A stretch of DNA of 64,000 nt from Trypanosoma brucei (taxonomy: Eukaryota): NCBI GenBank assembly GCA_000002445.1, contig AE017150.2:992001-1056000 (forward strand), read 5' to 3'. The position numbers were made by a program, and so were the translations under genes. Below are positions 8,501 through 55,355 of the stretch, one piece after another. The stretch's first letter is position 1, and every line of letters starts with the position of its first letter. The notes under the pieces are model-generated. The model ran no database searches. It was not told the origin of the DNA and saw only the letters and a program-made list of their open reading frames with translations.

Positions 8501-8505
8501 CGTAC

Positions 8506-16446: not shown

Positions 16447-16514
16447 CTGTCTTTGGTTTCAGAAAGAGGAGCGAAAGCAAGGGAAGTCAAGCAAGTAAGT
16501 TTTGTAACCGTAAA

Positions 16515-19500
16515 ATGATGAGAAAGAACTTGAACTCAAACGACGTCAGCCAGCCGCATTCTACTACAACATTGGACACAAACCCGGCATCGTACGGTAC
16601 GGTGCGTAACCCCCTGCATTCAGTGGTTGGGCCTACGGGTTACGGAGCACAACCACCCATATCGTCTCCAGCGACTTGGGTGAACAACCATTCGGCAGCC
16701 TTTGCCGCCCAGGGCCTGGGACCACACTGTGGAGCCCCCGGCGGTAGACCCTTCCCAGTGGTGCGTGGTTCAACGAATCGCGGAGATTCATATACAGAGC
16801 TTCAATGCCCAGTGGCAGGGTCAGGGCCAACCAACCCGTATGGGAATCGAACCGCGATCGACAAACTTCCTGGCTTGGAGGGCGGCCGATTTGATTGTGG
16901 AGGAGCCGGTCAGCGGCGCGGCCCATTACTCGGGGTATCGGGGGACCTCTATGGCGTGACAGGAATCAGTAATTCCACATCCAGAGGAAACGATCGACAC
17001 AACGGATCCATGTATGGCACGAACCCCACGTACAGCAAGACCTCGAGAACGGGTTCCATGTATGGCATGGGTTCCATGTATGGCAGAACATCGAGAATAG
17101 GTTCCATGTATGGCATGGGTTCCATGTATGGCAGAACATCAAGAACAGGTTCCATGTATGGCATGGGTTCCATGTATGGCAGAACATCGAGAATAGGTTC
17201 CATGTATGGCAGAACATCGAGAATAGGTTCCATGTATGGCAGAACATCAGGAACAGGTTCCATGTATGGGATGGGCTCAATTTATGGCATGGGTTCCATG
17301 TATGGCAGAACATCAAGAACAGGTTCCATGTATGGTCCGCGGATGGAATATGGCCCGATATACGGCGTGGGAGGGCCCATGGGTTCCATGTACGGTCCGC
17401 AGATGGGATACGGCCCGATATACGGTGTGGGAGGGCCCACGGGTTCCATGTACGGTCCGCAGATGGGATACGGCCCGATATACTGTGTGGGGCCCATGTA
17501 CGGCCGACCATCGAGGACAGATTCCGTGTACGGTCCGCAGATGGGACACGGCCCGATGTACTGTGTGGGAGGGCTGCTCTACAACAAAGCATTTCAGGAG
17601 GGTGACCCAGGCCGAGGCCCCACCGTACCTAAATCCGCGCCGTGCAACTCCAGCACTCCTTCCGCAGGAGTTACAACAAAGCCTGACGCGGAACCGGACA
17701 GGGAAGAGAAGGAGCCACGCGTTACTGGCGGAAAGAAGCCTACCACTTTCACCAACAAAGGACCCGCTGCCGAGACCGCCAAGAAACCCTGCGACCTGGA
17801 TTCTGGAAACGGGAAAGTAAAACACTCTCCTGTTGCTCAGGTTCCGCCTGACAACAGCGTTCGCACACTAATGGTGGTGAGCAGTGAGGCAGGACCGCAA
17901 GTAACAATAAAAGAGGAGGAGCGGAAGGTGGGCGTGGCGAGCAGTGGCGAGGAGGTCGTTTACTACGAAGGTGACGAGGTCGTGCACGGGGATGAGATCA
18001 CTGTGGAAAAGTCTGCACTTCTACAAATGATCGTCCAGCAGGTGGAACTGGGCCACAACACCGCTCTCATTTTGTCCGACAGTACACCGCAGCAGACTCT
18101 CTCTGCGTGCGTCACTACATCCGTAATGAAATCCATATTGGCGGCACTCAGGAAGGGTGAGACGGAAAATGGAACCAAATACGAGGTTTTGGCGACTGCA
18201 GCGGATGTGCCAACGATCGCGACCGCCAGAGATCTTCTGGCCGTGGAGAGCGAGGCAGTGAAAATTGCTCGATATGGCTCCAATCCCATGTTGGGTGCGT
18301 GCCTGATGGACCTGCAGGAGACAGTGCTACGGGACGATGCTGATGTCGATGTGTTTGTACAAGAGGCACTGAAAAAGTCATCGGGCACTGCGGCATTGGG
18401 TGTTATGCATGCGACGTTGAAGCAGATCAGAAAAACCAGCAGCGCTGCACCTACGGTGTACGTCTCCTCTTTCGTATGCCTGTTCGTGAAGGATGGGGTC
18501 GAACACCTCCAAGATCTTCTTGACATGAATGGGAAGGTTGTGCCTCTCCCACTTGCGAAGAGTGTTTTGGGCGGAGGCAGCTGTGTGGTTGCCGTGGTTG
18601 GTGCATCAGGTAAGGACGTGGCAGTGGACGCGAAGATCCTGAGCAACACCGCTGCGCTGCGGGGGGTAAAAAACACACCGCCACGGAGTGGTAACGTCGC
18701 CCGTTTTGTTGAGTTTGCGGAGACCCAGTTCACGGAATGTAAAGCTGCCATTGAACGTTCGAAGGAAGCGGCGGAGCGAGAGCGCCACGAGCGGACGCTT
18801 CGGAGGTTGGAGATCATGCTCTCGGACGCGCGGAAGCTGCTGTCGGACCCTGAGGAGACGCGGGCAAAAGTGTATCCACCAAGCCGAGAGTCAGTGAAGA
18901 ACGGCTCTGTCGAGAACGATGGCGGGAATGTGAGAAATGGTGCCTCCATAGAGGATGACAGACCCAGCGCCGCCACGTTAGCACCAGCTCCCGCGTCTGC
19001 TGATTCTCTGACCGAGCCAAAGGAGCAGGAGGTGATTGGGGCTCCTGCCCCAGCACACACCACAGAACCGTGGGAAAAGACCGCCAAAATCATTGTAACT
19101 GCGGGGTCGGGGCCCTCGAACGGCACCGCTGAGGTTGTTGCAGGAGGCGAGAAGAAAACTGACGAAGTTGATGAATATATCCAACGCACCGGCGTAAGAC
19201 CTGTGGATTCCGTTATTGCAAAGCGTATGGAGGGTATTCTTACCCAAGGATACAACGTAGCCCTCTTGTCTGCGGAGATGGTGCCTGACGAAGTTACAGG
19301 GGATCAGGTGACATGGAGTCTCGTGAAGGCGATCCTGAAGGGTGCACTAAGCAAAAAGGATGGCGTAACAAATGAGTGTACCCTGCAGATGAGCATCCTC
19401 AGAGGTGACAAAGTCGTGCTGGACCTGCTTGGATCGTCAGAAAAGCGACAGCTTGTTGTCGCAAGGTCTCCAATATTTGGTGTGACGGTACAGGGAGCTA

Positions 19501-21083
19501 CAACAAAGGTGGTGGGGAGTGCGGTACAAGTGGAACCTGTGCTCGAGGCCGCTTTGATGGAGGCGAAAGATGCCTTTAAGGACAGTGGATATATTGTCTT
19601 CACGGCAGTGCTGAAGCAGGTAACCGCCGCTGATGTAAGCGTTTCGTCATTATTTGTCGTGAGCGCTCCCGACATGCAGCCGTTCGTGGATGCGCTGGAG
19701 AAAAAGGAGACGCATCCGCATGCATTGTTCGCGCACGCACTCCTGGGTCCGTGTTCGTGTGCCCTACTCGTCAGCTATCGGGATGTGGATGACAATGTAC
19801 TTAAGGCTCTTGACGCGCACCGTGAAATAACGCTGAAGAACAACAAGCAACCGGGTGGAAGCGTCAGAAAGTTTGTTGGCGTGGTGGAGCAGTCCATAAC
19901 GGCTGCTGAAGAGAAACTAAAGAGTGTGGATGATGCAAAGGAGAGGGAGCGACATGAGCAAGTCTTGCGCGACAAGAAACAGGCTCTGCACGACGCACAA
20001 AAACTTCTGGAAAAGCCCAACGAAACACAGCCCGTCGCGTACGTTCCGTCGATATCCCAGGAGTCCGGAGGGGCCGATTCCACTGTTCGCGTGGTCGCAG
20101 TCCTCACCGATAAACGTGATGGAAAGAAGCGCAATGTTATTGCCAAGGACAACGGGTTCACGATCAAAACTTCTGTGGAGGAAACGGAGTTCCCAGCTGA
20201 TGAGGTGGTGAGGCGCATAGGTCAGGCAGCGAAAATCCGTTCATCTTCGGTCGATTTTCTCATTGATCACTTTGTAAAGGGGTACAACGTCGCCCTCCTC
20301 ACGGCCGATGTCGATGGTTTCTCGACAGGAGAGAACCTGTTGGAACACACGGTCCGCAGCGTCTTCACGAAGAAAAATGCGGACGGAGAACTGTTTGTTG
20401 TGCTTGCTTCTATCAAGGCTGATTGCTGCTCAGCGAAGGATCTGCAACGCGATGGCGCTACGTACGACCAACTGCAGTGCGCTTCTTCACCACTGTTCGG
20501 GCCCTGTGTTGCTGATGCGAAGTTTGAACTTGCGACAACTCCGGATACGCTGCTGCGGAAAGTGAGGTCCGCCATTCAGGTATGCGAGGCAGACAAATCT
20601 ACGCTTTTGTGTCTTTTTGTTTACAAGGAGCGGAAGCCCGCGGATGGTGACGTCTTCCTGTCTTCATTTTTCTTTTTCCTAGCCGGGAGTAGAGTGGATA
20701 TTTACACTCAAGCTCTGGAGAAGCGTCAGAAGGAACGGGGTCTGTTCCAGTATGCGCTTGGTGGTCCATGCCTCACTGCCTTCGCCCTCGGTCTCTCGAC
20801 GAGTAACAGCGATGTTGAAACAGCCACAGCCTTCGTTAGGCTGGCAAAAAAAGTTCGCGGGAGTAAAATCGGCACCATCCGCACTGGTGGTATACAACGC
20901 TTTGTGGCCTTCTCGACAAAGGCCCTTGAACAACTACGCGTCTTGCAGGAGAAGGCACCGGAGAGTGACAGGGGGCGACTCAGAGAGAGCAGTACGAACG
21001 TGGAAAAGGTGCTTGCTGACGCAGAGGAACTCTTGCGCAACCCAGAAGGTCGTGCACCACCACTCTACAAGCAAGAGCGATAA
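16515..21083 (+). CDS. Pseudokinesin-like protein (1522 aa) with N-terminal Y/G/M-rich tandem repeats and three degenerate kinesin-motor-like modules
   Basis: ORF track 16392..21083 starts at TTG; the first in-frame ATG is at 16515. Module motifs are GHNTALILSDS / GYNVALLSAEMVPDEVTG / GYNVALLTADVDGF and VLGGGSCVVAVVG / ALLGPCSCALLVSY / ALGGPCLTAFALGLS. Each module is followed by an ERERHE coiled coil and LLSDPEETRAKVY / LLEKPNETQPVAY / LLRNPEGRAPPLY. Confidence 0.6.
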   Translation: MMRKNLNSNDVSQPHSTTTLDTNPASYGTVRNPLHSVVGPTGYGAQPPISSPATWVNNHSAAFAAQGLGPHCGAPGGRPFPVVRGSTNRGDSYTELQCPVAGSGPTNPYGNRTAIDKLPGLEGGRFDCGGAGQRRGPLLGVSGDLYGVTGISNSTSRGNDRHNGSMYGTNPTYSKTSRTGSMYGMGSMYGRTSRIGSMYGMGSMYGRTSRTGSMYGMGSMYGRTSRIGSMYGRTSRIGSMYGRTSGTGSMYGMGSIYGMGSMYGRTSRTGSMYGPRMEYGPIYGVGGPMGSMYGPQMGYGPIYGVGGPTGSMYGPQMGYGPIYCVGPMYGRPSRTDSVYGPQMGHGPMYCVGGLLYNKAFQEGDPGRGPTVPKSAPCNSSTPSAGVTTKPDAEPDREEKEPRVTGGKKPTTFTNKGPAAETAKKPCDLDSGNGKVKHSPVAQVPPDNSVRTLMVVSSEAGPQVTIKEEERKVGVASSGEEVVYYEGDEVVHGDEITVEKSALLQMIVQQVELGHNTALILSDSTPQQTLSACVTTSVMKSILAALRKGETENGTKYEVLATAADVPTIATARDLLAVESEAVKIARYGSNPMLGACLMDLQETVLRDDADVDVFVQEALKKSSGTAALGVMHATLKQIRKTSSAAPTVYVSSFVCLFVKDGVEHLQDLLDMNGKVVPLPLAKSVLGGGSCVVAVVGASGKDVAVDAKILSNTAALRGVKNTPPRSGNVARFVEFAETQFTECKAAIERSKEAAERERHERTLRRLEIMLSDARKLLSDPEETRAKVYPPSRESVKNGSVENDGGNVRNGASIEDDRPSAATLAPAPASADSLTEPKEQEVIGAPAPAHTTEPWEKTAKIIVTAGSGPSNGTAEVVAGGEKKTDEVDEYIQRTGVRPVDSVIAKRMEGILTQGYNVALLSAEMVPDEVTGDQVTWSLVKAILKGALSKKDGVTNECTLQMSILRGDKVVLDLLGSSEKRQLVVARSPIFGVTVQGATTKVVGSAVQVEPVLEAALMEAKDAFKDSGYIVFTAVLKQVTAADVSVSSLFVVSAPDMQPFVDALEKKETHPHALFAHALLGPCSCALLVSYRDVDDNVLKALDAHREITLKNNKQPGGSVRKFVGVVEQSITAAEEKLKSVDDAKERERHEQVLRDKKQALHDAQKLLEKPNETQPVAYVPSISQESGGADSTVRVVAVLTDKRDGKKRNVIAKDNGFTIKTSVEETEFPADEVVRRIGQAAKIRSSSVDFLIDHFVKGYNVALLTADVDGFSTGENLLEHTVRSVFTKKNADGELFVVLASIKADCCSAKDLQRDGATYDQLQCASSPLFGPCVADAKFELATTPDTLLRKVRSAIQVCEADKSTLLCLFVYKERKPADGDVFLSSFFFFLAGSRVDIYTQALEKRQKERGLFQYALGGPCLTAFALGLSTSNSDVETATAFVRLAKKVRGSKIGTIRTGGIQRFVAFSTKALEQLRVLQEKAPESDRGRLRESSTNVEKVLADAEELLRNPEGRAPPLYKQER
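17005..17585 (+). repeat. Intragenic tandem repeats: 33/51-nt units (GSMYG[MGSMYG]RTSR[IT]G) then 60-nt units (GSMYGPQMGYGPIYGVGGPT)
   Basis: ggttccatgtatggcatgggttccatgtatggcagaacatcgagaataggt repeats directly. Overlapping alternate-frame and antisense ORFs (16949..17263-, 16966..17592-, 17236..17820+) are repeat shadows. Confidence 0.85.
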
Positions 21084-41629: not shown

Positions 41630-42073
41630 GATTGCATCGTGTTTTTTCTAAGTTATATTTAATTTTTAGAATTTCAGTTAATATTTTGTTTCATGACTTT
41701 ACGTGTTTGGGCACCAAATTCTCTCTTTACAGTGACCTCTTCCTTTACTGTCTTCTTGTTGCTCATTGCAACAAGGCGCACTTCCGTTCCTGCCGCAACG
41801 TGAAAGGATTATACGACTGACTCTGCCCCTCATCGTAGATTTTAGTGTCGTTTACCACCGTTACGTGTTCTTTCATGCTTCTCTACTTAATGTTTCCATT
41901 TCAATAGTTGTTTGATAGCCCAGAAACCACAAAAGAGTAAAGGGTTGAGGTGCAAAAGTTGATTTCACTTTGGAGCCGCATTGTTGACAGAGGGTAATCC
42001 TTTCGTTTTTGCTGTTAAAGGTGGCGTGCGCGGCAAGCCAAGGCCTGTATACAGTTTTCTGGGGGATCTGGCA

Positions 42074-45000
42074 ATGGGTGAAGCAGATGCGCCTTCTGGG
42101 GGTCAAGAATCAAACTACTTACCTGTGGCAGCCGTAGTGAACAGCGGAAGTGCATCAGGTTCAGGTGCTCACCGTGGTCCGAGACATCAACGTGAGAGAT
42201 CGGGCGGAAACGAAAACACTGAGAATGTACCTCCGCTGCCGAAGACTGGGCTAACCAATGCATCGTTCGTGAGGTTGGAGGATCCTCGTGATATTGGTGA
42301 GGCCACTTCTACCGAAATACTGTCTGAACCAGATGACGAAGAGGAACATTTGGTTACTTATCATGGCGTGAAGCTTAACGGGGACAATTGGGTTGACGTG
42401 CTGAGGGGATCGCGTGCTGTATTCGACGATGCCTTGGGTGCTGACGTATGCGATATGCTTGCGCTTCCTCGCAGTAGTGTGAGGGATGTAAAGGTGGGCG
42501 CTGATGGACAGTCGGTTATGTTTGGTGTGCGGCACCCCTTTTCACTACAAAAGGACGAAGTAAATAAGGCACTGGAGAGCTGCCGGTTTACCAGTACGTT
42601 GAAGTTGTACGATCTGCAAACTGATTCTGGTCCATTGGAAACTGACTCTCCCGTACTCAAGGCCTCTGAGAGTGCACCCCCATCGCTCCGTGACGAGGAG
42701 TCTTCACAGCATGGTGATATTAAGGGTGCCTCGTCTGTGAAAAAGATCAAACCTCGTAATCACAACATAGGTGCTTGTTCAATTACTGGCCATTCTGCTT
42801 CCGTTGAAGTGTTGTACGGTGCGATTTACGATGAAGACGCTGCCGTAACGCACCACCGCGTAAAGTTTAACGGCAACAATTGGGACTCTATTGTGCACCA
42901 CAAGGGTATGGCCATAAGGGAGGCGTTTGATACTGACGTGAGTAATGCGCTGGGTCTGCCCCGGGGCAGCGTGGAGGATGTGACATTGGCTCCTGATGGG
43001 CTTTCAATGAGTTTTAGTGTGCGACACCCAGCATCATTGCGGAGAAAAGATGTTAATAAAATTCTGGCGAAGTGCCCATTTGAGAACACATGGAGGTTAT
43101 ATGAATCAAAGAAATCTTTTAATAACTCCAGAGTTGCCTCTTTTGTGCTCAGATCGTCGGTGAACGCACCTCCATCGCTGAGGGCCGAAGAGGACGTAGG
43201 AGTGGTGCTGGGTGACTGGGACGCCAACCCACCCTTTGAATTTCTTGTCCCAGCTACTGCGTCACAGATGACGGTTGTGAGGCCCCCTAATGCAGCCAGT
43301 GGTGAATGTAACATTAACTCTATGCCCGATGATATCCTGATCAATACAGAAGGTGAAGGTTTTGGCACTGTAACACGTCATGAAGTAAAATTTGAGGGAG
43401 ACAATTGGGGTGTTGTGCATGAGAAGAAGCGTGTTGCATTTGATGAAGCATTCGACGCTGACATATGCGGTGCATTGGGCGTACCTCGGGGAAGTGTGGA
43501 GGATATGGTGTTAGCTTCTGATGGACAGTTGGTTTCGTTTGGTGTGCGGCATCCTGCCTCCTTAGGGAAAAAAGATATCAACAAAGCCCTATCGAGCTGC
43601 CCATTTGAAAACACATGGAAGTTGTATGAACCAAAGAAGTCCGCTTCTCCCTCGGAGCTCAACTCACCTGTTATGAAGGCCACTAAGGGTGAGCTTGCGC
43701 CACTGCGAGCGGGGGAAGTTGTGGGACCAACACCCTTGGAGGTAGGGGGGCCTCGTGACCTTGCTGCTGATGGTGCTACTGCAAAGACGTCCGGTCAACC
43801 CGTTGACGTAGAGACAAATGTACTAACGCGTCACCGTGTAAAGTTTCACGGAGACAATTGGGGTGTTGTGCATGAGAAGAAGCGTGTTGCATTTGATGAA
43901 GCATTCGACGCTGACATATGCGGTGCATTGGGCGTACCTCGGGGAAGTGTGGAGGATATGGTGTTAGCTTCTGATGGACAGTTGGTTTCGTTTGGTGTGC
44001 GGCATCCTGCCTCCTTAGGGAAAAAAGATATCAACAAAGCCCTATCGAGCTGCCCATTTGAAAACACATGGAAGTTGTATGAACCTAAGAAGTCCGCTTC
44101 TCCCTCGGAGCTCAACTCACCTGTTATGAAGGCCACTAAGGGTGAGCTTGCGCCACTGCGAGCGGGGGAAGTTGTGGGACCAACACCCTTGGAGGTAGGG
44201 GGGCCTCGTGACCTTGCTGCTGATGGTGCTACTGCAAAGACGTCCGGTCAACCCGTTGACGTAGAGACAAATGTACTAACGCGTCACCGTGTAAAGTTTC
44301 ACGGAGACAATTGGGGTGTTGTGCATGAGAAGAAGCGTGTTGCATTTGATGAAGCATTCGACGCTGACATATGCGGTGCATTGGGCGTACCTCGGGGAAG
44401 TGTGGAGGATATGGTGTTAGCTTCTGATGGACAGTTGGTTTCGTTTGGTGTGCGGCATCCTGCCTCCTTAGGGAAAAAAGATATCAACAAAGCCCTATCG
44501 AGCTGCCCATTTGAAAACACATGGAAGTTGTATGAACCAAAGAAGTCCGCTTCTCCCTCGGAGCTCAACTCACCTGTTATGAAGGCTACTAAGGGTGAGC
44601 TTGCGCCACTGCGAGCGGGGGAAGTTGTGGGACCAACACCCTTGGAGGTAGGGGGGCCTCGTGACCTTGCTGCTGATGGTGCTACTGCAAAGACGTCCGG
44701 TCAACCCGTTGAACGAGAGGATGGATGTGTAACTTCCCATGCTTTGAAGCTTGAGGGAGACAATTGGGGTGCTGTGTATGAAAAGAAGCGTGCTGCATTT
44801 GATGAAGCATTCGACGCTGACATATGTGATACACTGGGCGTACCTCGGGGAAGTGTGGAGGATATGGTGTTAGCTTCTGATGGACAGTTGGTTTCGTTTG
44901 GCGTGCGGCATCCTGCCTCCTTAGGGAAAAAAGATATCAACAAAGCCCTTTCGAGCTGCCCATTTGAAAACACATGGAAGTTGTATGAACCAAAGAAGTC

Positions 45001-48000
45001 CGCTTCTCCCTCGGAGCTCAACTCACCTGTTATGAAGGCCACTAAGGGTGAGCTTGCGCCACTGCGAGCGGGGGAAGTTGTGGGACCAACACCCTTGGAG
45101 GTAGGGGGGCCTCGTGACCTTGCTGCTGATGGTGCTACTGCAAAGACGTCCGGTCAACCCGTTGAACGAGAGGATGGATGTGTAACTTCCCATGCTTTGA
45201 AGCTTGAGGGAGACAATTGGGGTGCTGTGTATGAAAAGAAGCGTGCTGCATTTGATGAAGCATTCGACGCTGACATATGTGATACACTGGGCGTACCTCG
45301 GGGAAGTGTGGAGGATATGGTGTTAGCTTCTGATGGACAGTTGGTTTCGTTTGGTGTGCGGCATCCTGCCTCCTTAGGGAAAAAAGATATCAACAAAGCC
45401 CTTTCGAGCTGCCCATTTGAAAACACATGGAAGTTGTATGAACCTAAGAAGTCCGCTTCTCCCTCCAGGTTTGACTCTCTTGTTCTGATGACCACTAAGG
45501 GTGAGCTTGCGCCACTGCGAGCAGAGGAAGAGGCTGCCGGACCACTGCCCGATGCTTCCGATGCTTTTCCTTCAGCGACAGCCGCGGTATCTAATTTGTT
45601 GCCTGCAAAGGCAATAAGATCACGTTATTTTTCAAGTGGTGAGTGTAACATCACCACTAGTGGTGCTACCCCTATAGCCCTATATGGAGCGTTGTGTGAC
45701 AGTGACACTGTTGTCACACGGCACCGTGTGAGGTTTAATGGGGAAAACTGGGATTTGGTTTTACAACGCAGACGTGCAGAACTGGACGACGCGTTGGATG
45801 CTGATGTGAGCGAAGCGTTGGACCTGCCTCGAGGAAGCGTTAGTGATATTGAGTATGTACCCGACGGCCTTACTGCGTCGTTTGGTGTGCGGCATCCCGC
45901 GGCGTTCCGTAGGCGGGACATCGCGCGTTTACTTTCGAAGGGTCAGTTTGCGAATTTGTGGAAGATGTACCCACGCAGCAGAAATATTGATACTTTAGGG
46001 CCTTCGTTGTCCTCGTTGAAGGCATCGGAAAAAGCCCCGCCGAACATAGTAGGGGGGGAAGTCGTACCACCGGTCCCCAATTTTTGTCAGAGCCGTGCTA
46101 AGGTTGACGCGGCAGGACTTCCTACTCGCGCATCTGATACGGTTACTCCATCGGACTACACCAATGGTCAACAGTCAGTTATGAAAACGGAGAAGCGCGG
46201 CAGTGTTGTTGATGGAGGTGATACCATTATTACTTGCCACCGCGTAAAGCTGAGTGGAGCCAACTGGGTCGAGGTAGTTGAGACGAAACGGGCTGCATTC
46301 GACGAAGCATTCGATACCGATGTGTGTGAGGCATTGGGCTTCCCCTTGGGTTGTGTGGAGGATGTGCTGTTAGGTCCCGATGGTCATTCGGTTACGTTTG
46401 CGGTGCGCCACTCAGCCTCTTTGCAAAAGAGTGACGTCAAAAAGGTTCTTCGTCTTTGCCCATTTGCTAACACATTGCAGTTATACCATTCACGGAGAAC
46501 TCTCCCTTCTTCTGAGGTTGCATCCACCGTGCTTCGAGCAACTGAAAAGGAAAAACCTGCGCCGACACCGCGAAGCCACGGTTCAGCCAAACCTTCGACC
46601 GTAAAGGTGGCGGCGTCTTGTGACCTCGAGGGAAGGGGTGCTGACGGTGATCCAGCCTTCGTTGAAGTATTTAATGGACTGATCAGCGACGAAGATACCT
46701 TGGTAACACGCCATGGCGTACTGCTCAACGGAGAAAATTGGCTTAAATTACATGAAAGCAAATCTGCAGCGTTTAATGACGCATTCGATGCTGATGTGTG
46801 CGAGGCGCTGGGTCTTCCATGCGGCAATGTTGAAGGTATAAAGTTGAATCCCGACGGCCACCTAGTTACCTTCGGCGTTCGTCATCCTATTTCACAGCGG
46901 AGGGAGGATATCAACAGAGCTCTTGGAAAATGCAGATATCAGAATCTGATGAAATTGTACAACTCCCGTTCTGCTGTTTATTCCTGTGTCGCCACATCCC
47001 CCATGCTTAGAGCAACAGAGACGGCGCGCGCGGCGTTAGCGACCCAAGAGTCGATCTCACAACCTGCGGTCTCCGAGGTAGCCAATACAACATCGGTAGG
47101 GGTGGCGAAGTCGCGCAACCTTCTGGACGGAAGCGCGGCTGCGAGTAACTCTGCTTCTGTAGCCGGATTGCATGCTTTCCTTTCAGATCAGCCGGTTGTA
47201 ACCCAGCACGGTATAAAATTCAGCGGGGCCAACTGGGCTGATGTGATTGAAGGCCGTGCAATGTTTGACGACGCGCTTGATGCTGATGTGTGTGAGGCGG
47301 TGGGTCTTCCTCGAGGGAGCGTTGAAGACATACTACTAAGCTCTGATGGACGCTCCGTCGCCTTTGGTGTACGCCATCCTGCTTCCATAAGCAAAGGGGA
47401 TATCAATCAAGCACTTGATAACTGCAGATTTGTCAACACTTTGAGGTTGTATAATATGCGTTCTGCTGTTTATTCCTGTGTCGCCAAATCCCCCATGCTT
47501 AGAGCAACAGAGACGGCGCGCGCGGCGTTAGCGACCCAAGAGTCGATCTCACAACCTGCGGTCTCCGAGGTAGCCAATACAACATCGGTAGGGGTGGCGA
47601 AGTCGCGCAACCTTCTGGACGGAAGCGCGGCTGCGAGTAACTCTGCTTCTGTAGCCGGATTGCATGCTTTCCTTTCAGATCAGCCGGTTGTAACCCAGCA
47701 CGGTATAAAATTCAGCGGGGCCAACTGGGCTGATGTGATTGAAGGCCGTGCAATGTTTGACGACGCGCTTGATGCTGATGTGTGTGAGGCGGTGGGTCTT
47801 CCTCGAGGGAGCGTTGAAGACATACTACTAAGCTCTGATGGACGCTCCGTCGCCTTTGGTGTACGCCATCCTGCTTCCATAAGCAAAGGGGATATCAATC
47901 AAGCACTTGATAACTGCAGATTTGTCAACACTTTGAGGTTGTACGTCTCGCGATGCCCTCCCGTTGTTTATGAAGCCAGTCGACCACCACTAAAGGCTGC

Positions 48001-51000
48001 TGAGGCTGAGCAATTGTCACTAAAGGCTGCTGAAACGAAGCGACCACCACTAAAGGCTGCTGAGGCTGAGCAATCGTCACTAAAGGCTGCTGAAACGAAG
48101 CGACCACCACTAAAGGCTACTGAGGCTGAGCAATCGTCACTAAAGGCTGCTGAAACGAAGCGACCACCACTAAAGGCTGCTGAGGCTGAGCAATCGTCAC
48201 TAAAGGCTGCTGAAACGAAGCGACCACCACTAAAGGCTGCTGAGGTTGGGCGACCACCACTAAAAGCTACTGAGGCTGAGCAATCGTCACTAAAGGCTGC
48301 TGAAACGAAGCGACCACCACTAAAGGCTGCTGAGGTTGGGCGACCACCACTAAAAGCTACTGAGGCTGAGCAATCGTCACTAAAGGCTGCTGAAACGAAG
48401 CGACCACCACTAAAAGCTACTGAGGCTGAGCAATCGCCACTAAAGGTTACTGAAGCTAGGCGTGCACCACCAGCAAGAGCCACTGAGGTTGAGCGACCAC
48501 CTCTAAAAGTGGTGGAGATTAGCTCGCCAACGAGTTTCGTGGCGGGACCGAGGTCCGTGGGGCTCGTTAACCCCCCAAGTCTTGTGGATACAGGCATTAT
48601 TGGAAGTAGCTCTGCTTCATTTGACATACTGTATGGCTCCCTGAAAGACGAAGGGGCTGTGGTAACCGAATACCGTGCCAAGTTGAACGGGAGTCACTGG
48701 CGTGTTTTGCTGCAACACAGGTTCCTGGAGTTCGAGGAGGCCTTTTACGGTGATGTGTGTGATGCGCTGAGTCTTACGAAGGGGAGCGTGGACAACATGG
48801 AACTAGACTCTGATATGCAGGCATTTTCTTTTGGTGTGCGACATCGCAGGTCACTTGAACCGAGTGCTGTGTTACGTCAGTTGGGAGAATATCATTTTTC
48901 TAAAACTCGGGAATTTTGTGACTCACAAAAACGGTTTGGTGTCGTTGTTGATGATCATGACCAGCTCCTCACCCTAGAAATTGCTTCGAAACAGGAACTA
49001 CCGGAGGCTGATGATGGTTGCGACGAAGACTTGCGGCACTTGCAGACTTCAGGACGTAGTGATCTGCCTTCTTCGCCTTCGTCCCCACTGTGCATCAAGA
49101 AGACAAATACACGAACAATGCACTTTGGCAATACCGGTGCCGGCGCTGTACGTTTACCGAAGACCAGGAAATACGAGGCCGCTCCCGCGAACGCCACTGT
49201 GACGCAACACCGAGTTCAATTTGTCGCCGAGAACTGCGGTCATGTTGCCGATGAGACGCGGGAGAAGGTCCCCCAAGCACTGAATCTTGACGTCTGCGAC
49301 GCACTGGGCATTTCTTGGAAGTGCGTGGAGGAGGTAACGCTCAGCCCTGATGGAAGACTTGTGACATTTGGTGTGCGTCATTCGCCGAAAATGAGCCGTG
49401 CCGATGTGAGGAGCGCGCTCATAGCACACGATTTCCCATACACATGGAAAGTTTATGAACCGGATACGCTAGTTGAGTTCGAAAGCGGAGTTGAACGTAC
49501 TACCGCGGAACAAAAGTCACAAGCAACCCCGAAAGCAACGAGTACATCATCCATATATTTCTCTCCTTCTTCCGTCCCACCGTTCGTGAGAGTTGCTGAG
49601 CCTCAAAATTTTGTTAAGGACAGCTTTACTATAAGTAACACTGCCTCTTTGGAGGTGCTTCACACTGCAATCGGCGATGGCACTGTCGTAACAAAGCACC
49701 GTGTCAAATTCAATGGGGACAATTGGGGTGCTGTGCTTGAGAAGAAGCGTGCTGCATTTGATGAGGCGTTTGATGCCGACGTGTGTGATGCGTTAGACCT
49801 TCCTCGGGGAAGTGTGGAGGGGATAACGTTGGGCTCAGATGGCCTCTCAATTGACTTCGGTGTGAGACACCCCGCTTCGTTGCACAAGGATGAGGTGGAT
49901 CATTTTCTGTCGACCTCTGAGTTTCCTGCGATGTGGAACCTTTATGAGCCGAAGAAGAAGGTCTTGTCATCGATTGTCATGGGGGACACCGAAGAGCGTG
50001 AGACAACCTCTTTTAGTACTTCGCTGCCCCAACGCGCCTCTCCCGTCAGCGCCAAGGAGTTCCCATCTTGTTTGCACCCCGCTCCCGGGGTTGCGTCCAG
50101 CTCCGTTCCAATGGACCGCGCTGATGGTGCATCGGGTTCGGGTAATGTGTGCCACTTATACCGTGTTGGATTTGTGGGGGGTTTCTGGAGCGGCATCGTT
50201 GACAAGCGCTTTACTGCAGCAGTGGACTGCTTTATGCGTGATGCGGCTGTCGGAGAGGGTCTAGTCCCACGTAGTGTGGAGAGGGTTGTGTCGCTCGACT
50301 CTGGTAATGTTGTGTTTTCCGTCTGGATGGAGCATGCGGCTGCTCTGTCGCAGAGTGAAGTGTGCACAGCGATGGACAACGCCCCCTTTCCATCCATGTG
50401 GAAGCTATATGACGACTTGATCAATGAAGGTGTTGTCGGGCGGACCACGACGTTGCATCGCGTGGGTTTGGTGGGGTCTGAGTGGGCGCATGTGGCAAAC
50501 GTTGATCTGGTCAAAGAGGTATTTATCCAGGATGTTGCAGAGGCACTTCGCCTCAGTCCTGAGGATATAAATGTTAACGAGTACACAGTTAACGATAAGC
50601 TCGTCATCGGGTTCTACGTGAGCCATTCCCACACCTTAACAGAAGTAGATATCGACGATATGTTGGCTAATGCTCCACTCTCGCGTGTGTGGGGATTATG
50701 CCCGGTCCCTGGAACAAATTCCTGGAAAGCTGCACACTGCAAGGGTTCGGCAAGAAGCAACTCCGGTTCCTTTCCACATACCGAGCCCCTTCGTGGTGGC
50801 CGGTTTCGCGACCTTTCTCCAATACCCTTGTCGGGTGGGATTCCCGCTGAAACTCCGCACGACCGACGCTCAAATTCTCAATATCGGCGGTCGTTGGGAC
50901 CTCTTCAAGGCGTTGTATCCCCGCCGATGCGAAGGTATGATGGCCATAACCAGCACTCCGGCCGGTTCTATCAGGCAAATAAGCGGTCGCCGGGTCAATT

Positions 51001-51301
51001 CTCCCCCCCTAACCAACCAGTGGTGAATACGAAGGGAGTACATGCCATGAGAATGTCTCCACAAAGCGGCAGGTTTAAGGCAGGGAGCGCACGGGGCGGA
51101 GGGTCGCTGATTGCCGGATCTGACCCCGTTCGCGCATCGCTTCCCCGAGTGGATCTTTTGAAGGTGGGTGAGTTGCTTGCGCTGATGCGCCGGCGACAGT
51201 TGGAAGAGGGGTCCACTCGCCTTCCACCTTTGACTGGGAGGGCACAACCCTACCCCAGTTGTGCCCCCAGTACCGTAAAGCGATATGTGGGATCAAAGTG
51301 A
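42074..51301 (+). CDS. FLAM8: Giant repetitive protein (3075 aa) built from ~17 copies of a ~80-aa domain (HRVKFNGDNW...FDEAFDADVC.ALGLPRGSVED..L..DG..V.FGVRHPAS....DIN.AL..C.F.NT..LY) plus a 20-aa repeat block; FLAM8-like by size and context (from memory)
   Basis: ORF 41981..51301 starts at TTG; the first ATG is at 42074, giving 3075 codons. The domain recurs from about aa 120 to 2900. The flagellar-member-8 assignment rests on recalled size and synteny only, with no diagnostic catalytic motif. Confidence 0.5.
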   Translation: MGEADAPSGGQESNYLPVAAVVNSGSASGSGAHRGPRHQRERSGGNENTENVPPLPKTGLTNASFVRLEDPRDIGEATSTEILSEPDDEEEHLVTYHGVKLNGDNWVDVLRGSRAVFDDALGADVCDMLALPRSSVRDVKVGADGQSVMFGVRHPFSLQKDEVNKALESCRFTSTLKLYDLQTDSGPLETDSPVLKASESAPPSLRDEESSQHGDIKGASSVKKIKPRNHNIGACSITGHSASVEVLYGAIYDEDAAVTHHRVKFNGNNWDSIVHHKGMAIREAFDTDVSNALGLPRGSVEDVTLAPDGLSMSFSVRHPASLRRKDVNKILAKCPFENTWRLYESKKSFNNSRVASFVLRSSVNAPPSLRAEEDVGVVLGDWDANPPFEFLVPATASQMTVVRPPNAASGECNINSMPDDILINTEGEGFGTVTRHEVKFEGDNWGVVHEKKRVAFDEAFDADICGALGVPRGSVEDMVLASDGQLVSFGVRHPASLGKKDINKALSSCPFENTWKLYEPKKSASPSELNSPVMKATKGELAPLRAGEVVGPTPLEVGGPRDLAADGATAKTSGQPVDVETNVLTRHRVKFHGDNWGVVHEKKRVAFDEAFDADICGALGVPRGSVEDMVLASDGQLVSFGVRHPASLGKKDINKALSSCPFENTWKLYEPKKSASPSELNSPVMKATKGELAPLRAGEVVGPTPLEVGGPRDLAADGATAKTSGQPVDVETNVLTRHRVKFHGDNWGVVHEKKRVAFDEAFDADICGALGVPRGSVEDMVLASDGQLVSFGVRHPASLGKKDINKALSSCPFENTWKLYEPKKSASPSELNSPVMKATKGELAPLRAGEVVGPTPLEVGGPRDLAADGATAKTSGQPVEREDGCVTSHALKLEGDNWGAVYEKKRAAFDEAFDADICDTLGVPRGSVEDMVLASDGQLVSFGVRHPASLGKKDINKALSSCPFENTWKLYEPKKSASPSELNSPVMKATKGELAPLRAGEVVGPTPLEVGGPRDLAADGATAKTSGQPVEREDGCVTSHALKLEGDNWGAVYEKKRAAFDEAFDADICDTLGVPRGSVEDMVLASDGQLVSFGVRHPASLGKKDINKALSSCPFENTWKLYEPKKSASPSRFDSLVLMTTKGELAPLRAEEEAAGPLPDASDAFPSATAAVSNLLPAKAIRSRYFSSGECNITTSGATPIALYGALCDSDTVVTRHRVRFNGENWDLVLQRRRAELDDALDADVSEALDLPRGSVSDIEYVPDGLTASFGVRHPAAFRRRDIARLLSKGQFANLWKMYPRSRNIDTLGPSLSSLKASEKAPPNIVGGEVVPPVPNFCQSRAKVDAAGLPTRASDTVTPSDYTNGQQSVMKTEKRGSVVDGGDTIITCHRVKLSGANWVEVVETKRAAFDEAFDTDVCEALGFPLGCVEDVLLGPDGHSVTFAVRHSASLQKSDVKKVLRLCPFANTLQLYHSRRTLPSSEVASTVLRATEKEKPAPTPRSHGSAKPSTVKVAASCDLEGRGADGDPAFVEVFNGLISDEDTLVTRHGVLLNGENWLKLHESKSAAFNDAFDADVCEALGLPCGNVEGIKLNPDGHLVTFGVRHPISQRREDINRALGKCRYQNLMKLYNSRSAVYSCVATSPMLRATETARAALATQESISQPAVSEVANTTSVGVAKSRNLLDGSAAASNSASVAGLHAFLSDQPVVTQHGIKFSGANWADVIEGRAMFDDALDADVCEAVGLPRGSVEDILLSSDGRSVAFGVRHPASISKGDINQALDNCRFVNTLRLYNMRSAVYSCVAKSPMLRATETARAALATQESISQPAVSEVANTTSVGVAKSRNLLDGSAAASNSASVAGLHAFLSDQPVVTQHGIKFSGANWADVIEGRAMFDDALDADVCEAVGLPRGSVEDILLSSDGRSVAFGVRHPASISKGDINQALDNCRFVNTLRLYVSRCPPVVYEASRPPLKAAEAEQLSLKAAETKRPPLKAAEAEQSSLKAAETKRPPLKATEAEQSSLKAAETKRPPLKAAEAEQSSLKAAETKRPPLKAAEVGRPPLKATEAEQSSLKAAETKRPPLKAAEVGRPPLKATEAEQSSLKAAETKRPPLKATEAEQSPLKVTEARRAPPARATEVERPPLKVVEISSPTSFVAGPRSVGLVNPPSLVDTGIIGSSSASFDILYGSLKDEGAVVTEYRAKLNGSHWRVLLQHRFLEFEEAFYGDVCDALSLTKGSVDNMELDSDMQAFSFGVRHRRSLEPSAVLRQLGEYHFSKTREFCDSQKRFGVVVDDHDQLLTLEIASKQELPEADDGCDEDLRHLQTSGRSDLPSSPSSPLCIKKTNTRTMHFGNTGAGAVRLPKTRKYEAAPANATVTQHRVQFVAENCGHVADETREKVPQALNLDVCDALGISWKCVEEVTLSPDGRLVTFGVRHSPKMSRADVRSALIAHDFPYTWKVYEPDTLVEFESGVERTTAEQKSQATPKATSTSSIYFSPSSVPPFVRVAEPQNFVKDSFTISNTASLEVLHTAIGDGTVVTKHRVKFNGDNWGAVLEKKRAAFDEAFDADVCDALDLPRGSVEGITLGSDGLSIDFGVRHPASLHKDEVDHFLSTSEFPAMWNLYEPKKKVLSSIVMGDTEERETTSFSTSLPQRASPVSAKEFPSCLHPAPGVASSSVPMDRADGASGSGNVCHLYRVGFVGGFWSGIVDKRFTAAVDCFMRDAAVGEGLVPRSVERVVSLDSGNVVFSVWMEHAAALSQSEVCTAMDNAPFPSMWKLYDDLINEGVVGRTTTLHRVGLVGSEWAHVANVDLVKEVFIQDVAEALRLSPEDINVNEYTVNDKLVIGFYVSHSHTLTEVDIDDMLANAPLSRVWGLCPVPGTNSWKAAHCKGSARSNSGSFPHTEPLRGGRFRDLSPIPLSGGIPAETPHDRRSNSQYRRSLGPLQGVVSPPMRRYDGHNQHSGRFYQANKRSPGQFSPPNQPVVNTKGVHAMRMSPQSGRFKAGSARGGGSLIAGSDPVRASLPRVDLLKVGELLALMRRRQLEEGSTRLPPLTGRAQPYPSCAPSTVKRYVGSK
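43350..45610 (+). repeat. Five near-identical tandem 453-bp (151-aa) units inside the giant gene
   Basis: The anchor acaattgggg recurs at 43401, 43854, 44307, 44760 and 45213, exactly 453 bp apart. Antisense ORFs 43378..43683-, 43846..44136-, 44299..44568-, 44701..45042- and 45154..45495- have identical or near-identical translations. Confidence 0.9.
46960..47943 (+). repeat. Two near-identical tandem 492-bp (164-aa) units inside the giant gene
   Basis: ctgctgttta occurs at 46971 and 47463. Antisense ORFs 47188..47406- and 47680..47898- have identical translations. Confidence 0.9.
47975..48480 (+). repeat. ~8 x 60-nt (20-aa) tandem repeats RPPLKAAEAEQSSLKAAETK with 30-nt subrepeat variants
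   Basis: ccaccactaaaggctgctgaggctgagcaatcgtcactaaaggctgctgaaacgaagcga recurs directly. Confidence 0.9.
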
Positions 51302-52978
51302 TGGTACCAAGGAGGAAGGGGGGGAAAAAAGTAGAATCGTGTAGTTTCTGTACAAACACGCGTGGTGCACGCTAATGTATATACTGTTCCCTTTCTTCAC
51401 CTGAAGCGGTTACTCTTTCTTCCTTTCTTTTTTCCTTTTCTCATGGCAAGGTGTTTTTGCCGCCGAATATATATATATATATGTTTCCCGTGTCCCCGCC
51501 TCTGATATTTCTACCCCAACAATGCTTTGTACTCTCCTTCGGTCACTAATGCGTTTTATCGCACGCCTACTGATTTTCTGTTCTTGTCCTCCATTTTTTT
51601 TCCCCCACTCTGTCGTTTGGCGTTTATTTCTTTTTTTTTTTTTCGTTGGTTTGTTTGCGTGCTTCTTTCTTTATCCGAAAGAGTAAAATGAAGACTCGGG
51701 GGAGCGGCGGTTGCGAAACAGAAACAAGCAAGAAAGTGTGTGAGGGAAACTTATTGCCATTGGGGAAAAAGGGGGATGGCGGGAAACAATGGGTAGAGGG
51801 GTGGTAAGTTTGTGTGTTTTGTAATTACGTGCGTGTGGAGGGAACCCCATTGCTTACAAATGGGTGGATAGGTGTGTGAGTGCTGTAAACGCCTTTTTTT
51901 TTCCTTGTCTCATTACCCCTTTCCACTTTATATATGTATATGTGTTTATATTTATATCTCTGTGTACATGCGCATGTGCATATACATACGTATAAATATA
52001 AATAAATAAATAAATATATATATATATATATATATATATCTAACTTTTTTAGTTTTAATTTGTAAACGTGGGCATATGTTTTGCTCGGTGTGCTGAACGG
52101 CGTGTGTATGTGCGTATGCGTATGTGTGTATGCATGAACGACACTCGTGTAAAGAAAGCGGTGGTTATATAAAAATGGCATGTGTTTCAAATTAGACAAA
52201 AGGGATGAAGAGAAGAGAAAAGAGGAGAGGGAAAAGGAAGAGGAAGAGAGGTTGGGGGGCAGGGGAAGACTTGTGGGAGCAGTTGTCAACGAGATGACTT
52301 ATGAAATAAATTCAACAATATGGATTGAGAGTCAGGGAAATAGGCGCTCAGGAGATCTTTAACACCAAAGAAAGAGGAGGTACAACACATGTGCGTGTGT
52401 ATGAAGGAAGAAAACAATTGGTTCCAAAAGGTACATATAAATATATAAACGAAAAATATATTTGTATACATATATAGACGTGTGTATACGAAAGGGAAAT
52501 GTCAGATCCTCCAGTGGCATGGGTGTACATATGAACATATTTTTACGGTTCTAAACATGTTGTATTGTCTTCCTTTTCGTCTGTTTCCACCGTGCCTTCA
52601 CGATATCAGATGAAATAAATAAGTCGATACACACATATGCATTTGTGTGTTTATATATATATATATATATATATATACGTATATATATGCATATATTTGT
52701 ATGTATTTTTTGTTTTTCACTCCTTTTTTTAATATCCCCACTTCATCTGAAGTATCAATGTACTCCCTCTCCCTCCCCTTACCTCCAAAGCGTGTACCGC
52801 CTTAGACTCGTTTTTTAATATGAAAAATAATATATTAGTAAATAAATATATATATATACTTGAAATAAGCGGGGCGACGCGTATGTAAAAATAAATGACA
52901 GAATAAAGGGAAGGTAATGTGTAGAGACCGATATGGGGGAAGTCAAAGGAAGAAAGTGTAGATATGAAAATGTGTATG

Positions 52979-54356: not shown

Positions 54357-55355
54357 ATGATGCGACAAAATCTGACAAGTGACTCATTAATTACAGACAC
54401 ACTCCGTAAGGCCGGTGTCCCGTGTGATGTTGTTGGTATTGTGGAGACTGTTGCCGGTGCATGCCGTGCAATCGCTGCTGGGCTTCGCAATGACGGCGTG
54501 ACGGCCGCCAAGAGTAAGAATAACTTTGGTGATGACGTCCTCTCCGTCGATGTAATGGCTGACAAAATTATATCGGAGGCTCTCAACAGTTGCCAACATG
54601 TGGCTTCTTATGTTTCGGAAGAGTCCCCGTCATTGGCTTCTACCGCGCATAGCGGCAAGGCAACATATTCAGTTTCGTACGACCCACTGGATGGTAGCAG
54701 CATCATCACCTCTAATTTTACTGTCGGTTCTATCTTTGCGGTGTGGCCTGGGAACACACCCATCGGCCTTACCGTCCGTGATATGGCGGCAAGTGTTGTT
54801 GCTGTTTATGGCCCGCGTGTGGTGCTTTTCGTGGGGCAGGAGGAGTTGGGAGTGGCAGAATTCTTCTGTGGGGCGGATGGGGAATGGAAATTGGCTAAGC
54901 GCGTGTGGGCGGGAGTTTGTACGCCGCGAACTGCCACCGTGACGGCAGCGGGACGTGGTGTTAAACTGAAGGCAACGGTGTTTTCCCCCGGTAACCTTCG
55001 CGCCGTCCGCCACTTACCGTGGTATAAACAGCTGATAACTATGTATATGCAAGAAGGTGCCACATTACGTTACACGGGTGGGATGGTGCCGGATGTGTGC
55101 CAAATCATTGTGAAGGGCGACGGCATATATATGACGCCAGCGAGTCCACAACATAAGATGAAGCTAAGGTTATTGTTTGAAGCTGCACCAATGGCGTTTC
55201 TCATTCACTGCGCGGGCGGGCGTTCAACAACGGGGTTGACGAACATGATGAATGTGCGTGTAGTGAGTATGGAGCAAACGACGCCGATTGCCCTTGGTTG
55301 TGCACGAGATGTGGAGAGGTATGAGCGCATGTGTCGCGGGTGCAGCAAACTATAG
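54357..55355 (+). CDS. FBPase/SBPase-family sugar bisphosphatase (332 aa), likely sedoheptulose-1,7-bisphosphatase, with C-terminal -SKL (PTS1, glycosomal)
   Basis: ORF 54288..55355 starts at TTG; the first ATGs are at 54357 and 54360. YDPLDGSSII is the FBPase-family metal-binding motif. The protein ends in CRGCSKL. SBPase rather than FBPase is inferred from size and recalled synteny only. Confidence 0.7.
   Translation: MMRQNLTSDSLITDTLRKAGVPCDVVGIVETVAGACRAIAAGLRNDGVTAAKSKNNFGDDVLSVDVMADKIISEALNSCQHVASYVSEESPSLASTAHSGKATYSVSYDPLDGSSIITSNFTVGSIFAVWPGNTPIGLTVRDMAASVVAVYGPRVVLFVGQEELGVAEFFCGADGEWKLAKRVWAGVCTPRTATVTAAGRGVKLKATVFSPGNLRAVRHLPWYKQLITMYMQEGATLRYTGGMVPDVCQIIVKGDGIYMTPASPQHKMKLRLLFEAAPMAFLIHCAGGRSTTGLTNMMNVRVVSMEQTTPIALGCARDVERYERMCRGCSKL

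What the first reader, a model, noticed from the sequence alone, without database searches (positions are those of the whole stretch)
42330..50700. Giant protein assembled from ~17 diverged copies of one ~80-aa domain, with very recent 453-bp and 492-bp unit duplications
The domain (W-rich N-part, FDEAFDADVC, LGLPRGSVED, DG..V.FGVRHPAS, C.F.NT..LY) recurs along 2800 aa with graded divergence. Five units (43.35-45.61 kb) are identical or near-identical at the DNA level, as are two 492-bp units (46.96-47.94 kb). This indicates ongoing expansion or gene conversion. The fold and function of this domain are, to my knowledge, undescribed. Exact unit number here is assembly-sensitive.
Basis: partly seen in the sequence, partly recalled or inferred. 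Interest (0 to 1): 0.5.

Follow-up and report, generated by a model that had tools for sequence, protein, structure and literature searches.

The report
Trypanosome flagellar scaffold gene FLAM8
The giant repeat protein is the already studied Trypanosoma brucei flagellar-tip scaffold FLAM8, built from 17 copies of a catalogued trypanosomatid-only domain, so the repeats are real and still changing in number but the gene is not new.

Summary
One ORF (first ATG 42074, stop 51301; 3075 aa) carries 17 copies of a ~93-aa domain. It includes a 453-bp array (4.7 units by TRF; the fifth unit is partial; 92-99% identical) and a 492-bp pair (99% identical).

The protein is identical to T. brucei brucei TREU927 XP_951724.1 / Q586D0. 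This is FLAM8 (Tb927.2.5760, 3,075 aa), a published cytoskeletal flagellar-tip scaffold that positions the CARP3-adenylate cyclase signalling complex. The domain is Pfam PF23398 (FAZ1_cons). It was earlier reported as Pfam-B PB000506 in FAZ1, FAZ4, FAZ6, FAZ8, FAZ10, GB4, PFC20 and FLAM8.

The 453-bp unit count is 5, 4 and 6 in three Trypanozoon assemblies, with variants shared in a mosaic pattern, and a fourth assembly breaks inside the repeat-rich part of the gene. This supports unequal recombination and gene conversion, and it confirms assembly sensitivity. Near-identical arrays of this domain are common across trypanosomatids.

Verdict: already known, low interest.

The parts
42074..51301 (+). 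FLAM8 coding sequence (3075 aa plus stop), T. brucei brucei TREU927 chromosome 2
   Evidence: ORF. Exact match to XP_951724.1 / Q586D0. The 3,075-aa length matches the literature.
42074..42346 (+). N-terminal 91-aa region with no domain. It is non-hydrophobic and has no signal-peptide-like stretch.
   Evidence: Sequence; no Pfam hit.
42347..42625 (+). FAZ1_cons domain 1
42839..43117 (+). FAZ1_cons domain 2
   Evidence: AF2 model of the unit: core folded, flanks disordered.
43364..43642 (+). FAZ1_cons domain 3 (first unit of the 453-bp array, type A)
43817..44095 (+). FAZ1_cons domain 4 (453-bp unit, type B)
44270..44548 (+). FAZ1_cons domain 5 (453-bp unit, type B)
44723..45001 (+). FAZ1_cons domain 6 (453-bp unit, type C)
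45176..45454 (+). FAZ1_cons domain 7 (last, partial 453-bp unit, type C')
43385..45530 (+). Near-identical 453-bp (151-aa) tandem array: 4.7 units, each a domain plus a 58-aa linker
   Evidence: TRF; blastn 92-99%; periodicity 43382-45537
45707..45985 (+). FAZ1_cons domain 8
46223..46501 (+). FAZ1_cons domain 9
46697..46975 (+). FAZ1_cons domain 10
47189..47467 (+). FAZ1_cons domain 11 (first 492-bp unit)
47681..47959 (+). FAZ1_cons domain 12 (second 492-bp unit)
46967..47943 (+). 492-bp (164-aa) tandem duplication, 2.0 units, 99% identical
   Evidence: TRF; 7 mismatches in 492 and a 456-bp exact run; present as two units in all three assemblies
47981..48457 (+). Short-period repeat (30/60/90 bp) encoding RPPLKAAEAE / QSSLKAAETK decapeptides. 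It resembles the motif that follows most domains.
   Evidence: TRF; sequence; 17 motifs here versus 21 in DAL972
48656..48934 (+). FAZ1_cons domain 13
49193..49471 (+). FAZ1_cons domain 14
49682..49960 (+). FAZ1_cons domain 15 (best Pfam match; modelled by AF2, pLDDT 91.7)
50141..50713 (+). Divergent back-to-back domains 16 and 17 (5-aa spacer). This didomain is conserved in other trypanosomatid proteins and marks likely orthologues.
   Evidence: Didomain identity: 57% T. congolense, 45% T. conorhini, 41% T. theileri, about 32% T. vivax / Leptomonas / Leishmania.
50714..51298 (+). C-terminal 195-aa tail, rich in Ser, Arg, Pro and Gly, with no domain
   Evidence: Sequence; 33% identical tail in T. 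congolense P0039

Best explanation
This is the FLAM8 gene (FLAgellar Member 8, Tb927.2.5760) of Trypanosoma brucei brucei TREU927, on chromosome 2 between Tdp1 and glycosomal sedoheptulose-1,7-bisphosphatase.

Architecture. The protein is laid out as beads on a string. Seventeen ~93-aa FAZ1_cons (PF23398) alpha/beta modules are separated by linkers that are mostly 58-86 aa long. The linker flanks modelled around domain 2 are predicted disordered, and the others are assumed to be similar. The chain ends in a conserved back-to-back didomain followed by a basic tail.

Function shown by others. FLAM8 resists detergent extraction and stays with the flagellar cytoskeleton. It sits at the axoneme distal tip in procyclic forms and along the whole flagellum in bloodstream forms. 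It is required to concentrate CARP3, and with it the adenylate cyclase complex, at the tip. Knockouts lose social motility and salivary-gland colonisation, and show reduced extravascular dissemination.

Inferred here. The repeated FAZ1_cons modules are multivalent protein-protein or cytoskeleton-binding units. The flexible linkers let the scaffold reach from the axoneme tip interior towards membrane-proximal CARP3.

Shown here at the DNA level. The array evolves by unequal crossing-over and gene conversion between units. This produces near-identical 453-bp and 492-bp units and differences in copy number between strains.
For: Identity:
- The 3075-aa translation is an exact match to XP_951724.1 / Q586D0 on a 1,193,948-bp TREU927 contig.
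- T. equiperdum members of the same 90% cluster are named 'Flagellar Member 8'.
- The literature gives FLAM8 = Tb927.2.5760, 3,075 aa.
- The flanking genes Tdp1 and SBPase (C-terminal SKL) are confirmed.

Domain:
- PF23398 matches 17 times, with 1349 bits against a cut-off of 27.5.
- The literature notes 'the repetition of PFAMB506 domains' in FLAM8 and lists the same domain in FAZ1/4/6/8/10, GB4 and PFC20.

Structure:
- AF2 on a single domain gives pLDDT 91.7 and pTM 0.82.
- In the full 155-aa unit only the core is confident; the flanks have pLDDT below 50.

Function: PMC9481589, PMC10769064, PMC8459223.

Array dynamics:
- The 453-bp unit occurs 5 times in the window, 4 times in DAL972 and 6 times in GCA_003543875.1. 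The 492-bp unit occurs twice in all three.
- Unit types read A,B,B,C,C' versus A,B,B,C' versus A,B,B,B,B,C'. S/P and GA/DT variant patches are shared in a mosaic pattern between units and strains.
- The DAL972 protein is 2964 aa, with 16 domains and 40 extra residues of decapeptide repeat.
- The OVI assembly breaks inside the repeat-rich part of the gene.
Against: - No database available here links XP_951724.1 directly to the TriTrypDB identifier Tb927.2.5760. That link rests on the name in the cluster, the identical length and chromosome 2.
- No experiment shows what a FAZ1_cons domain binds. FLAM8 was not recovered in one tip immunoprecipitation (Varga 2017, cited).
- Part of the copy-number difference between assemblies could be repeat collapse or expansion during assembly rather than biology.
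- The GCA_003543875.1 copy carries a 1-bp frameshift in unit 4, which is probably a sequencing error.
Confidence: 0.88

Rival explanations
1. The near-identical units are mostly an assembly artefact. The true gene would have a different number of 453-bp units, possibly constant across strains, and no real ongoing turnover.
For: The T. equiperdum OVI short-read assembly breaks inside the repeat-rich part of the gene. Many family members in other species are 'partial'. The copy in GCA_003543875.1 carries a frameshift.
Against: Three independent chromosome-scale assemblies each contain at least four units and exactly two 492-bp units at the same position. The units are not identical: types A, B and C are distinguishable and appear in a consistent order. 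Mosaic variants are hard to produce by collapse alone.
Confidence: 0.1
2. The domain is a divergent SEA-type (mucin or adhesion-receptor) module, and the protein is a MUC16-like tandem-SEA surface molecule.
Confidence: 0.05
3. The repeats serve as an immunodominant tandem-repeat antigen or decoy, as in many parasite repeat proteins, rather than as a scaffold.
For: PF23398 is enriched among repeat proteins of protozoan parasites. Near-identical arrays are common in the family.
Against: The protein is intracellular and cytoskeletal. Knockout phenotypes are explained by CARP3 mislocalisation. The units are folded domains, not short low-complexity epitopes.
Confidence: 0.03

Closest known systems
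FLAM8 (FLAgellar Member 8, Tb927.2.5760), T. brucei
   Same: Identical sequence, identical length of 3,075 aa, and the same reported repetition of the PB000506/FAZ1_cons domain.
   Different: Nothing differs; it is this gene. The literature read here does not describe the near-identical 453/492-bp units, the 4/5/6 copy-number differences, the C-terminal didomain or the linker motifs.
FAZ1 and other PB000506 / PF23398 proteins (FAZ4, FAZ6, FAZ8, FAZ10, GB4, PFC20, Tb927.10.870)
   Same: They share the same ~93-aa domain and are all cytoskeleton-associated. The family is restricted to trypanosomatids among the named hits.
   Different: These are paralogues at other loci, with other partner regions such as 14-aa repeats, WD or coiled coil. 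In the profile search most family members matched over one to a few stretches, whereas FLAM8 has 17; I did not count copies in the T. brucei paralogues themselves.
T. vivax KAH8609260.1 (P0165) and Leishmania sp. Ghana KAG5494507.1 (P0017), with long FAZ1_cons arrays
   Same: Both have tandem arrays with near-identical copies: 26 domains at 97% median identity, and 15 domains at 98%. P0017 carries the C-terminal didomain at about 32% identity.
   Different: The periods differ: 94 aa without a linker in T. vivax, and 137-383 aa in Leishmania. The expansions are therefore lineage-specific rather than inherited.
SEA / ferredoxin-like alpha+beta sandwich modules (for example MUC16 SEA5, 7sa9)
   Different: There is no sequence or profile relationship. 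Only three strands are predicted. The protein is intracellular. The similarity is at fold level only and is weak.

Membership tests
FLAM8 (Tb927.2.5760) | Amino-acid sequence identical to the TREU927 reference protein | tested here: met
   Exact look-up: XP_951724.1 / AAX79000.1 / Q586D0, 3075 aa, on a 1,193,948-bp contig
FLAM8 (Tb927.2.5760) | Published length of 3,075 aa and the name 'Flagellar Member 8' on orthologues | tested here: met
   Length. T. equiperdum SCU72578.1 and SCU70495.1 in the same 90% cluster are named Flagellar Member 8.
FLAM8 (Tb927.2.5760) | Direct mapping of XP_951724.1 to the TriTrypDB identifier Tb927.2.5760 | not testable with these tools
   No TriTrypDB access. The mapping is inferred from name, length and chromosome 2. 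The neighbouring SBPase being Tb927.2.5800 is from memory.
FLAM8 (Tb927.2.5760) | Conserved synteny: Tdp1 upstream, SBPase and SPT6 downstream | tested here: met
   Window, T. equiperdum contigs, DAL972 locus L002
Pfam PF23398 FAZ1_cons | Score above the curated gathering cut-off (27.5 bits) | tested here: met
   1349.4 bits, E=0, 17 stretches, best stretch covering profile positions 1-92 of 93
Pfam PF23398 FAZ1_cons | Equivalence with Pfam-B PB000506 of Sunter et al. 2015 | tested here: inconclusive
   Both are reported in FAZ1 and repeated in FLAM8. The old Pfam-B alignment itself could not be compared.
SEA domain | Significant sequence-profile match to SEA (Pfam) | tested here: not met
   No SEA family among Pfam hits at E up to 1
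SEA domain | Extracellular context (signal peptide or transmembrane segment, mucin-type linkers) | tested here: not met
   N-terminus MGEADAPSGGQESNY... has no hydrophobic leader. Published work shows the protein is cytoskeletal, intraflagellar and not on the membrane.

The most novel reading that the evidence does not exclude
Two short motifs flank the domains and are conserved in other Trypanosoma proteins of this family. One follows the domain: P-[VPA]-[LM]-[KR]-A-[ST]-E...PP-x-L-R. The other precedes it: [VF]-E-[VI]-L-[YH]-G-x-[IL]-x-D-E-D. AlphaFold2 places the motif-bearing flanks of the one unit modelled (domain 2) in low-confidence regions (pLDDT below 50). They could be linear docking motifs for a partner such as CARP3 or calpain 1.3. 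The decapeptide repeat at 47981-48457 would then be a runaway amplification of the first motif. On this reading, strain differences in unit number (4/5/6 units; 17 versus 21 decapeptide motifs) would tune the valency of the flagellar cAMP-signalling scaffold, and possibly social motility or tissue dissemination.
Probability: 0.1. Interest if true: 0.45.

Novelty: already known. Interest (0 to 1): 0.15.

Why it matters
FLAM8 matters biologically: it positions the adenylate cyclase/CARP3 complex needed for tsetse transmission and for tissue dissemination. That role is already published.

This analysis adds modest detail:
- an exact domain map;
- evidence that the array gains and loses units between Trypanozoon lineages;
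- a conserved C-terminal didomain that marks orthologues;
- conserved linker motifs;
- a confident predicted fold with no solved relative.

Two practical consequences follow. FLAM8 length in short-read assemblies cannot be trusted, and constructs or RNAi fragments should avoid the 43.4-45.5 kb and 47.0-48.5 kb regions.

Tried and rejected
- The word-indexed protein search found nothing with the whole protein, probably because the repeats saturated the candidate list. With the domain profile it returned only two partial hits. The exhaustive HMM search was needed.
- The afdb50 fold library was not available.
- I first took the downstream FBPase-like gene for FBPase on chromosome 9. I then looked at GB4 and PFC20 as candidate identities. 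GB4 I set aside from memory, having recalled that it lies on chromosome 1; I did not open the paper listed. PFC20 is on chromosome 10. The downstream gene is the glycosomal SBPase.
- Profile and sequence searches of the PDB gave only low-complexity matches to the decapeptide region (eIF3a, designed beta-solenoids) or nothing.
- The Pfam DUF5893 hit (31 bits, no independent stretch) was not pursued.
Full report
**Observation.** The region holds one long ORF on the + strand, 41981-51301. Its first ATG is at 42074, giving 3075 aa. Pfam reports 17 stretches of a single family, PF23398 'FAZ1, conserved domain', with E=0 and 1349 bits against a 27.5-bit cut-off. I mapped all 17 copies at 93 aa each. 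Copies are 30-63% identical to domain 15, and the last two are the most divergent.

Tandem Repeats Finder gives a 453-bp array at 43385-45530 (4.7 copies, 96% matches). It also gives a 492-bp duplication at 46967-47943 (2.0 copies, 99%) and a 30/60/90-bp repeat at 47981-48457. Relative to unit 43817-44269, the other four 453-bp units are 99.1, 99.1, 96.3 and 92.4% identical, and the last is partial. Exact runs reach 452 bp at period 453 and 456 bp at period 492. The only corrections are that the domain is about 93 aa rather than 80, and that it has one conserved Trp.

**Identity.** The window has the layout of a trypanosomatid polycistron: all large ORFs lie on one strand and the spacers are AT-rich. 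The neighbours are a Tdp1 homologue upstream, and downstream an FBPase-family protein ending in SKL followed by SPT6. An exact-sequence look-up shows the 3075-aa protein is XP_951724.1 / AAX79000.1 / UniProt Q586D0 of Trypanosoma brucei brucei TREU927, on a 1,193,948-bp contig. Members of the same 90% cluster from T. equiperdum are named 'Flagellar Member 8'. The downstream gene is annotated as sedoheptulose-1,7-bisphosphatase. [quoted passage not shown] The finding is therefore the FLAM8 gene.

**What is already known.**
- FLAM8 was found in a proteome of intact procyclic flagella. It concentrates at the tip of the axonemal microtubules and stays there after detergent extraction.
- It needs intraflagellar transport to remain at the tip, and it spreads along the whole flagellum in bloodstream and some tsetse stages.
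- It is required for tip localisation of CARP3, which binds and regulates several adenylate cyclases. Super-resolution imaging places FLAM8 in the tip interior and CARP3 near the membrane. CARP3 BioID enriches FLAM8 125-fold.
- flam8 knockouts lose social motility and never colonise tsetse salivary glands.
- In mice the knockout shows reduced extravascular dissemination.
- The domain was noted in 2015 as Pfam-B PB000506. It occurs in nine T. brucei proteins, all cytoskeletal: FAZ1, FAZ8, GB4, PFC20, FLAM8, Tb927.10.870 and others. Later tables add FAZ4, FAZ6 and FAZ10.
- A 2026 preprint lists PF23398 among signatures enriched in parasite repeat proteins.

**Structure.** AlphaFold2 on domain 15, using the 14 distinct paralogous copies as the alignment, gives a confident model (pLDDT 91.7, pTM 0.82). 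Its order of elements is strand, two helices, a strand hairpin, then two helices. In a model of a full 155-aa unit (26 residues upstream of domain 2 and 36 downstream), only the core is confident and both flanks have pLDDT below 50. By my domain map, about 1,580 residues are folded domain and about 1,490 are linker or tail. Only one unit's flanks were modelled.

**Array dynamics.** Loci were fetched through the conserved Tdp1 neighbour.

| Assembly | 453-bp units | 492-bp units | Unit types |
|---|---|---|---|
| TREU927 (window) | 5 | 2 | A,B,B,C,C' |
| T. b. gambiense DAL972 (FN554965.1) | 4 | 2 | A,B,B,C' |
| GCA_003543875.1 (CM010673.1; from memory T. b. equiperdum IVM-t1) | 6 | 2 | A,B,B,B,B,C' |

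The counts are and the unit types. Variant patches (Ser/Pro in ...LA[S/P]DGQ..., GA/DT in ...DADIC[GA/DT]LG...) are distributed in a mosaic pattern among units and strains. The annotated DAL972 protein is 2964 aa. It has 16 domains and 40 extra residues in the decapeptide repeat, with 21 motifs against 17. The T. equiperdum OVI assembly breaks inside the repeat-rich part of the gene and leaves two gene fragments of 615 and 834 aa. The first fragment ends in the second 453-bp unit and the second begins within domain 13. The GCA_003543875.1 copy has a 1-bp frameshift in unit 4, probably a sequencing error. Together these results support unequal crossing-over plus gene conversion.

**Family context.** An exhaustive profile search of 1.84 billion representative proteins finds 268 proteins at E of 0.001 or better and 124 at 1e-10 or better, with up to 24 matched stretches per protein. 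Every hit for which a name could be retrieved is from Trypanosomatidae: Trypanosoma, Leishmania, Porcisia, Leptomonas, Angomonas and Lotmaria.

Near-identical arrays are common in the family. T. vivax KAH8609260.1 has 26 domains at a 94-aa period with 97% median identity. Leishmania sp. Ghana KAG5494507.1 has 15 domains at 98%. The differing periods imply independent, lineage-specific expansions.

The divergent back-to-back domains 16 and 17 are conserved as a pair. Identity is 57% in T. congolense (where the tail is also conserved), 45% in T. conorhini, 41% in T. theileri, and about 32% in T. vivax, Leptomonas and Leishmania. In the longest near-complete proteins (Leishmania sp. Ghana P0017 and Leptomonas P0019) the pair lies about 250 aa from the C-terminus. 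It is a plausible orthologue marker, and possibly the anchoring or targeting part of the protein.

**Mechanism.** Steps shown by others: cytoskeletal tip scaffold, CARP3 dependence, and the knockout phenotypes. Steps shown here: domain map, predicted fold, predicted disorder in the modelled flanks, and array turnover. Inferred: the FAZ1_cons modules act as multivalent binding units for cytoskeletal or signalling partners, and the long flexible chain bridges the tip interior and the membrane-proximal CARP3 pool. No experiment yet assigns a ligand to the domain.

**Verdict.** The feature is real and the description of the sequence is accurate. The gene, the domain family and the repetitive architecture are all already described. 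Novelty: already known. Interest: low (0.15). The residual open points are the domain's biochemical function, its experimental structure, and whether copy-number variation or the conserved linker motifs have functional consequences.

Noticed in passing
window 47981-48457 (aa 1970-2128 of FLAM8): The decapeptide repeat RPPLKAAEAE / QSSLKAAETK resembles the motif found just after most domains (for example SPVLKASESAPPSLR, SPVMKATKGELAPLR, SPMLRATE) and looks like an amplification of it. It has 17 motifs in TREU927 and 21 in DAL972.
   Followed up: partly
window, linkers after domains 1-12 (for example 42650-42700, 43150-43200); also proteins P0030, P0028, P0014: A post-domain linker motif matches the pattern [LM]-[KR]-[AS]-[ASTV]-[EK] and is often followed by PP.LR. 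It occurs after 10 of 17 FLAM8 domains. It also occurs in other Trypanosoma FAZ1_cons proteins: P0030 in 7 of 7 domains, P0028, and a T. rangeli fragment. The background rate is 0.6% per random 35-aa window. AF2 gives pLDDT below 50 for the flank that carries it in the modelled unit.
   Followed up: partly
window, about 20 aa upstream of domains 2, 8, 10, 11, 12, 13 and 15 (for example 42785-42835, 49625-49680): A conserved pre-domain motif, [SA]-[VF]-[ED]-[VI]-L-[YH]-G-[AS]-[IL]-x-D-E-[DG], lies outside the Pfam model. It is also present in P0028 (SVEVLRGALYDEN, FIEVYNGACVEED). In the one AF2 model made it was not confidently folded onto the domain.
   Followed up: partly
window 50141-50713: Domains 16 and 17 are back to back with a 5-aa spacer and are only about 30% identical to the other copies. 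As a pair they are conserved across trypanosomatids and lie about 250 aa from the C-terminus in the longest near-complete proteins (P0017, P0019). They may be the oldest, functionally distinct part of FLAM8.
   Followed up: partly
L003 (GCA_003543875.1 CM010673.1), about 14850: A 1-bp deletion in the fourth 453-bp unit splits the FLAM8 ORF into 969 aa and 2152 aa, and no gene is called there. This is probably a long-read homopolymer error rather than a pseudogene.
   Followed up: no
L001 (T. equiperdum CZPT02001887.1), plus the contig holding P0003: FLAM8 is split across two contig ends (615-aa N-terminal and 834-aa C-terminal fragments). Domains 5-12 and parts of domains 4 and 13 are missing from the assembly.
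   Followed up: yes
window 54357-55355: An FBPase-family protein ending in SKL (a peroxisomal/glycosomal PTS1-type tripeptide) is annotated as sedoheptulose-1,7-bisphosphatase. It is 100% identical in T. equiperdum.
   Followed up: yes
window 8458-14688 and 16392-21083: There are two further very large ORFs on the same strand. The 2076-aa ORF has only a weak, partial kinesin-motor match (31.7 bits, no independent stretch). The 1563-aa ORF has no Pfam hit.
   Followed up: no
window 51980-52039, 52648-52708, and GC dips at 38-40 kb and 52-54 kb: (TA)n and ATAT microsatellites sit in AT-rich (about 36-37% GC) intergenic spacers flanking the gene, as is typical of trypanosome inter-CDS regions.
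   Followed up: no
FLAM8 aa 325-360 (window about 43046-43153): There is a weak Pfam DUF5893 match (31.4 bits against a cut-off of 25, no independent stretch) overlapping the end of domain 2 and its linker. Its relation to FAZ1_cons is unclear.
   Followed up: no
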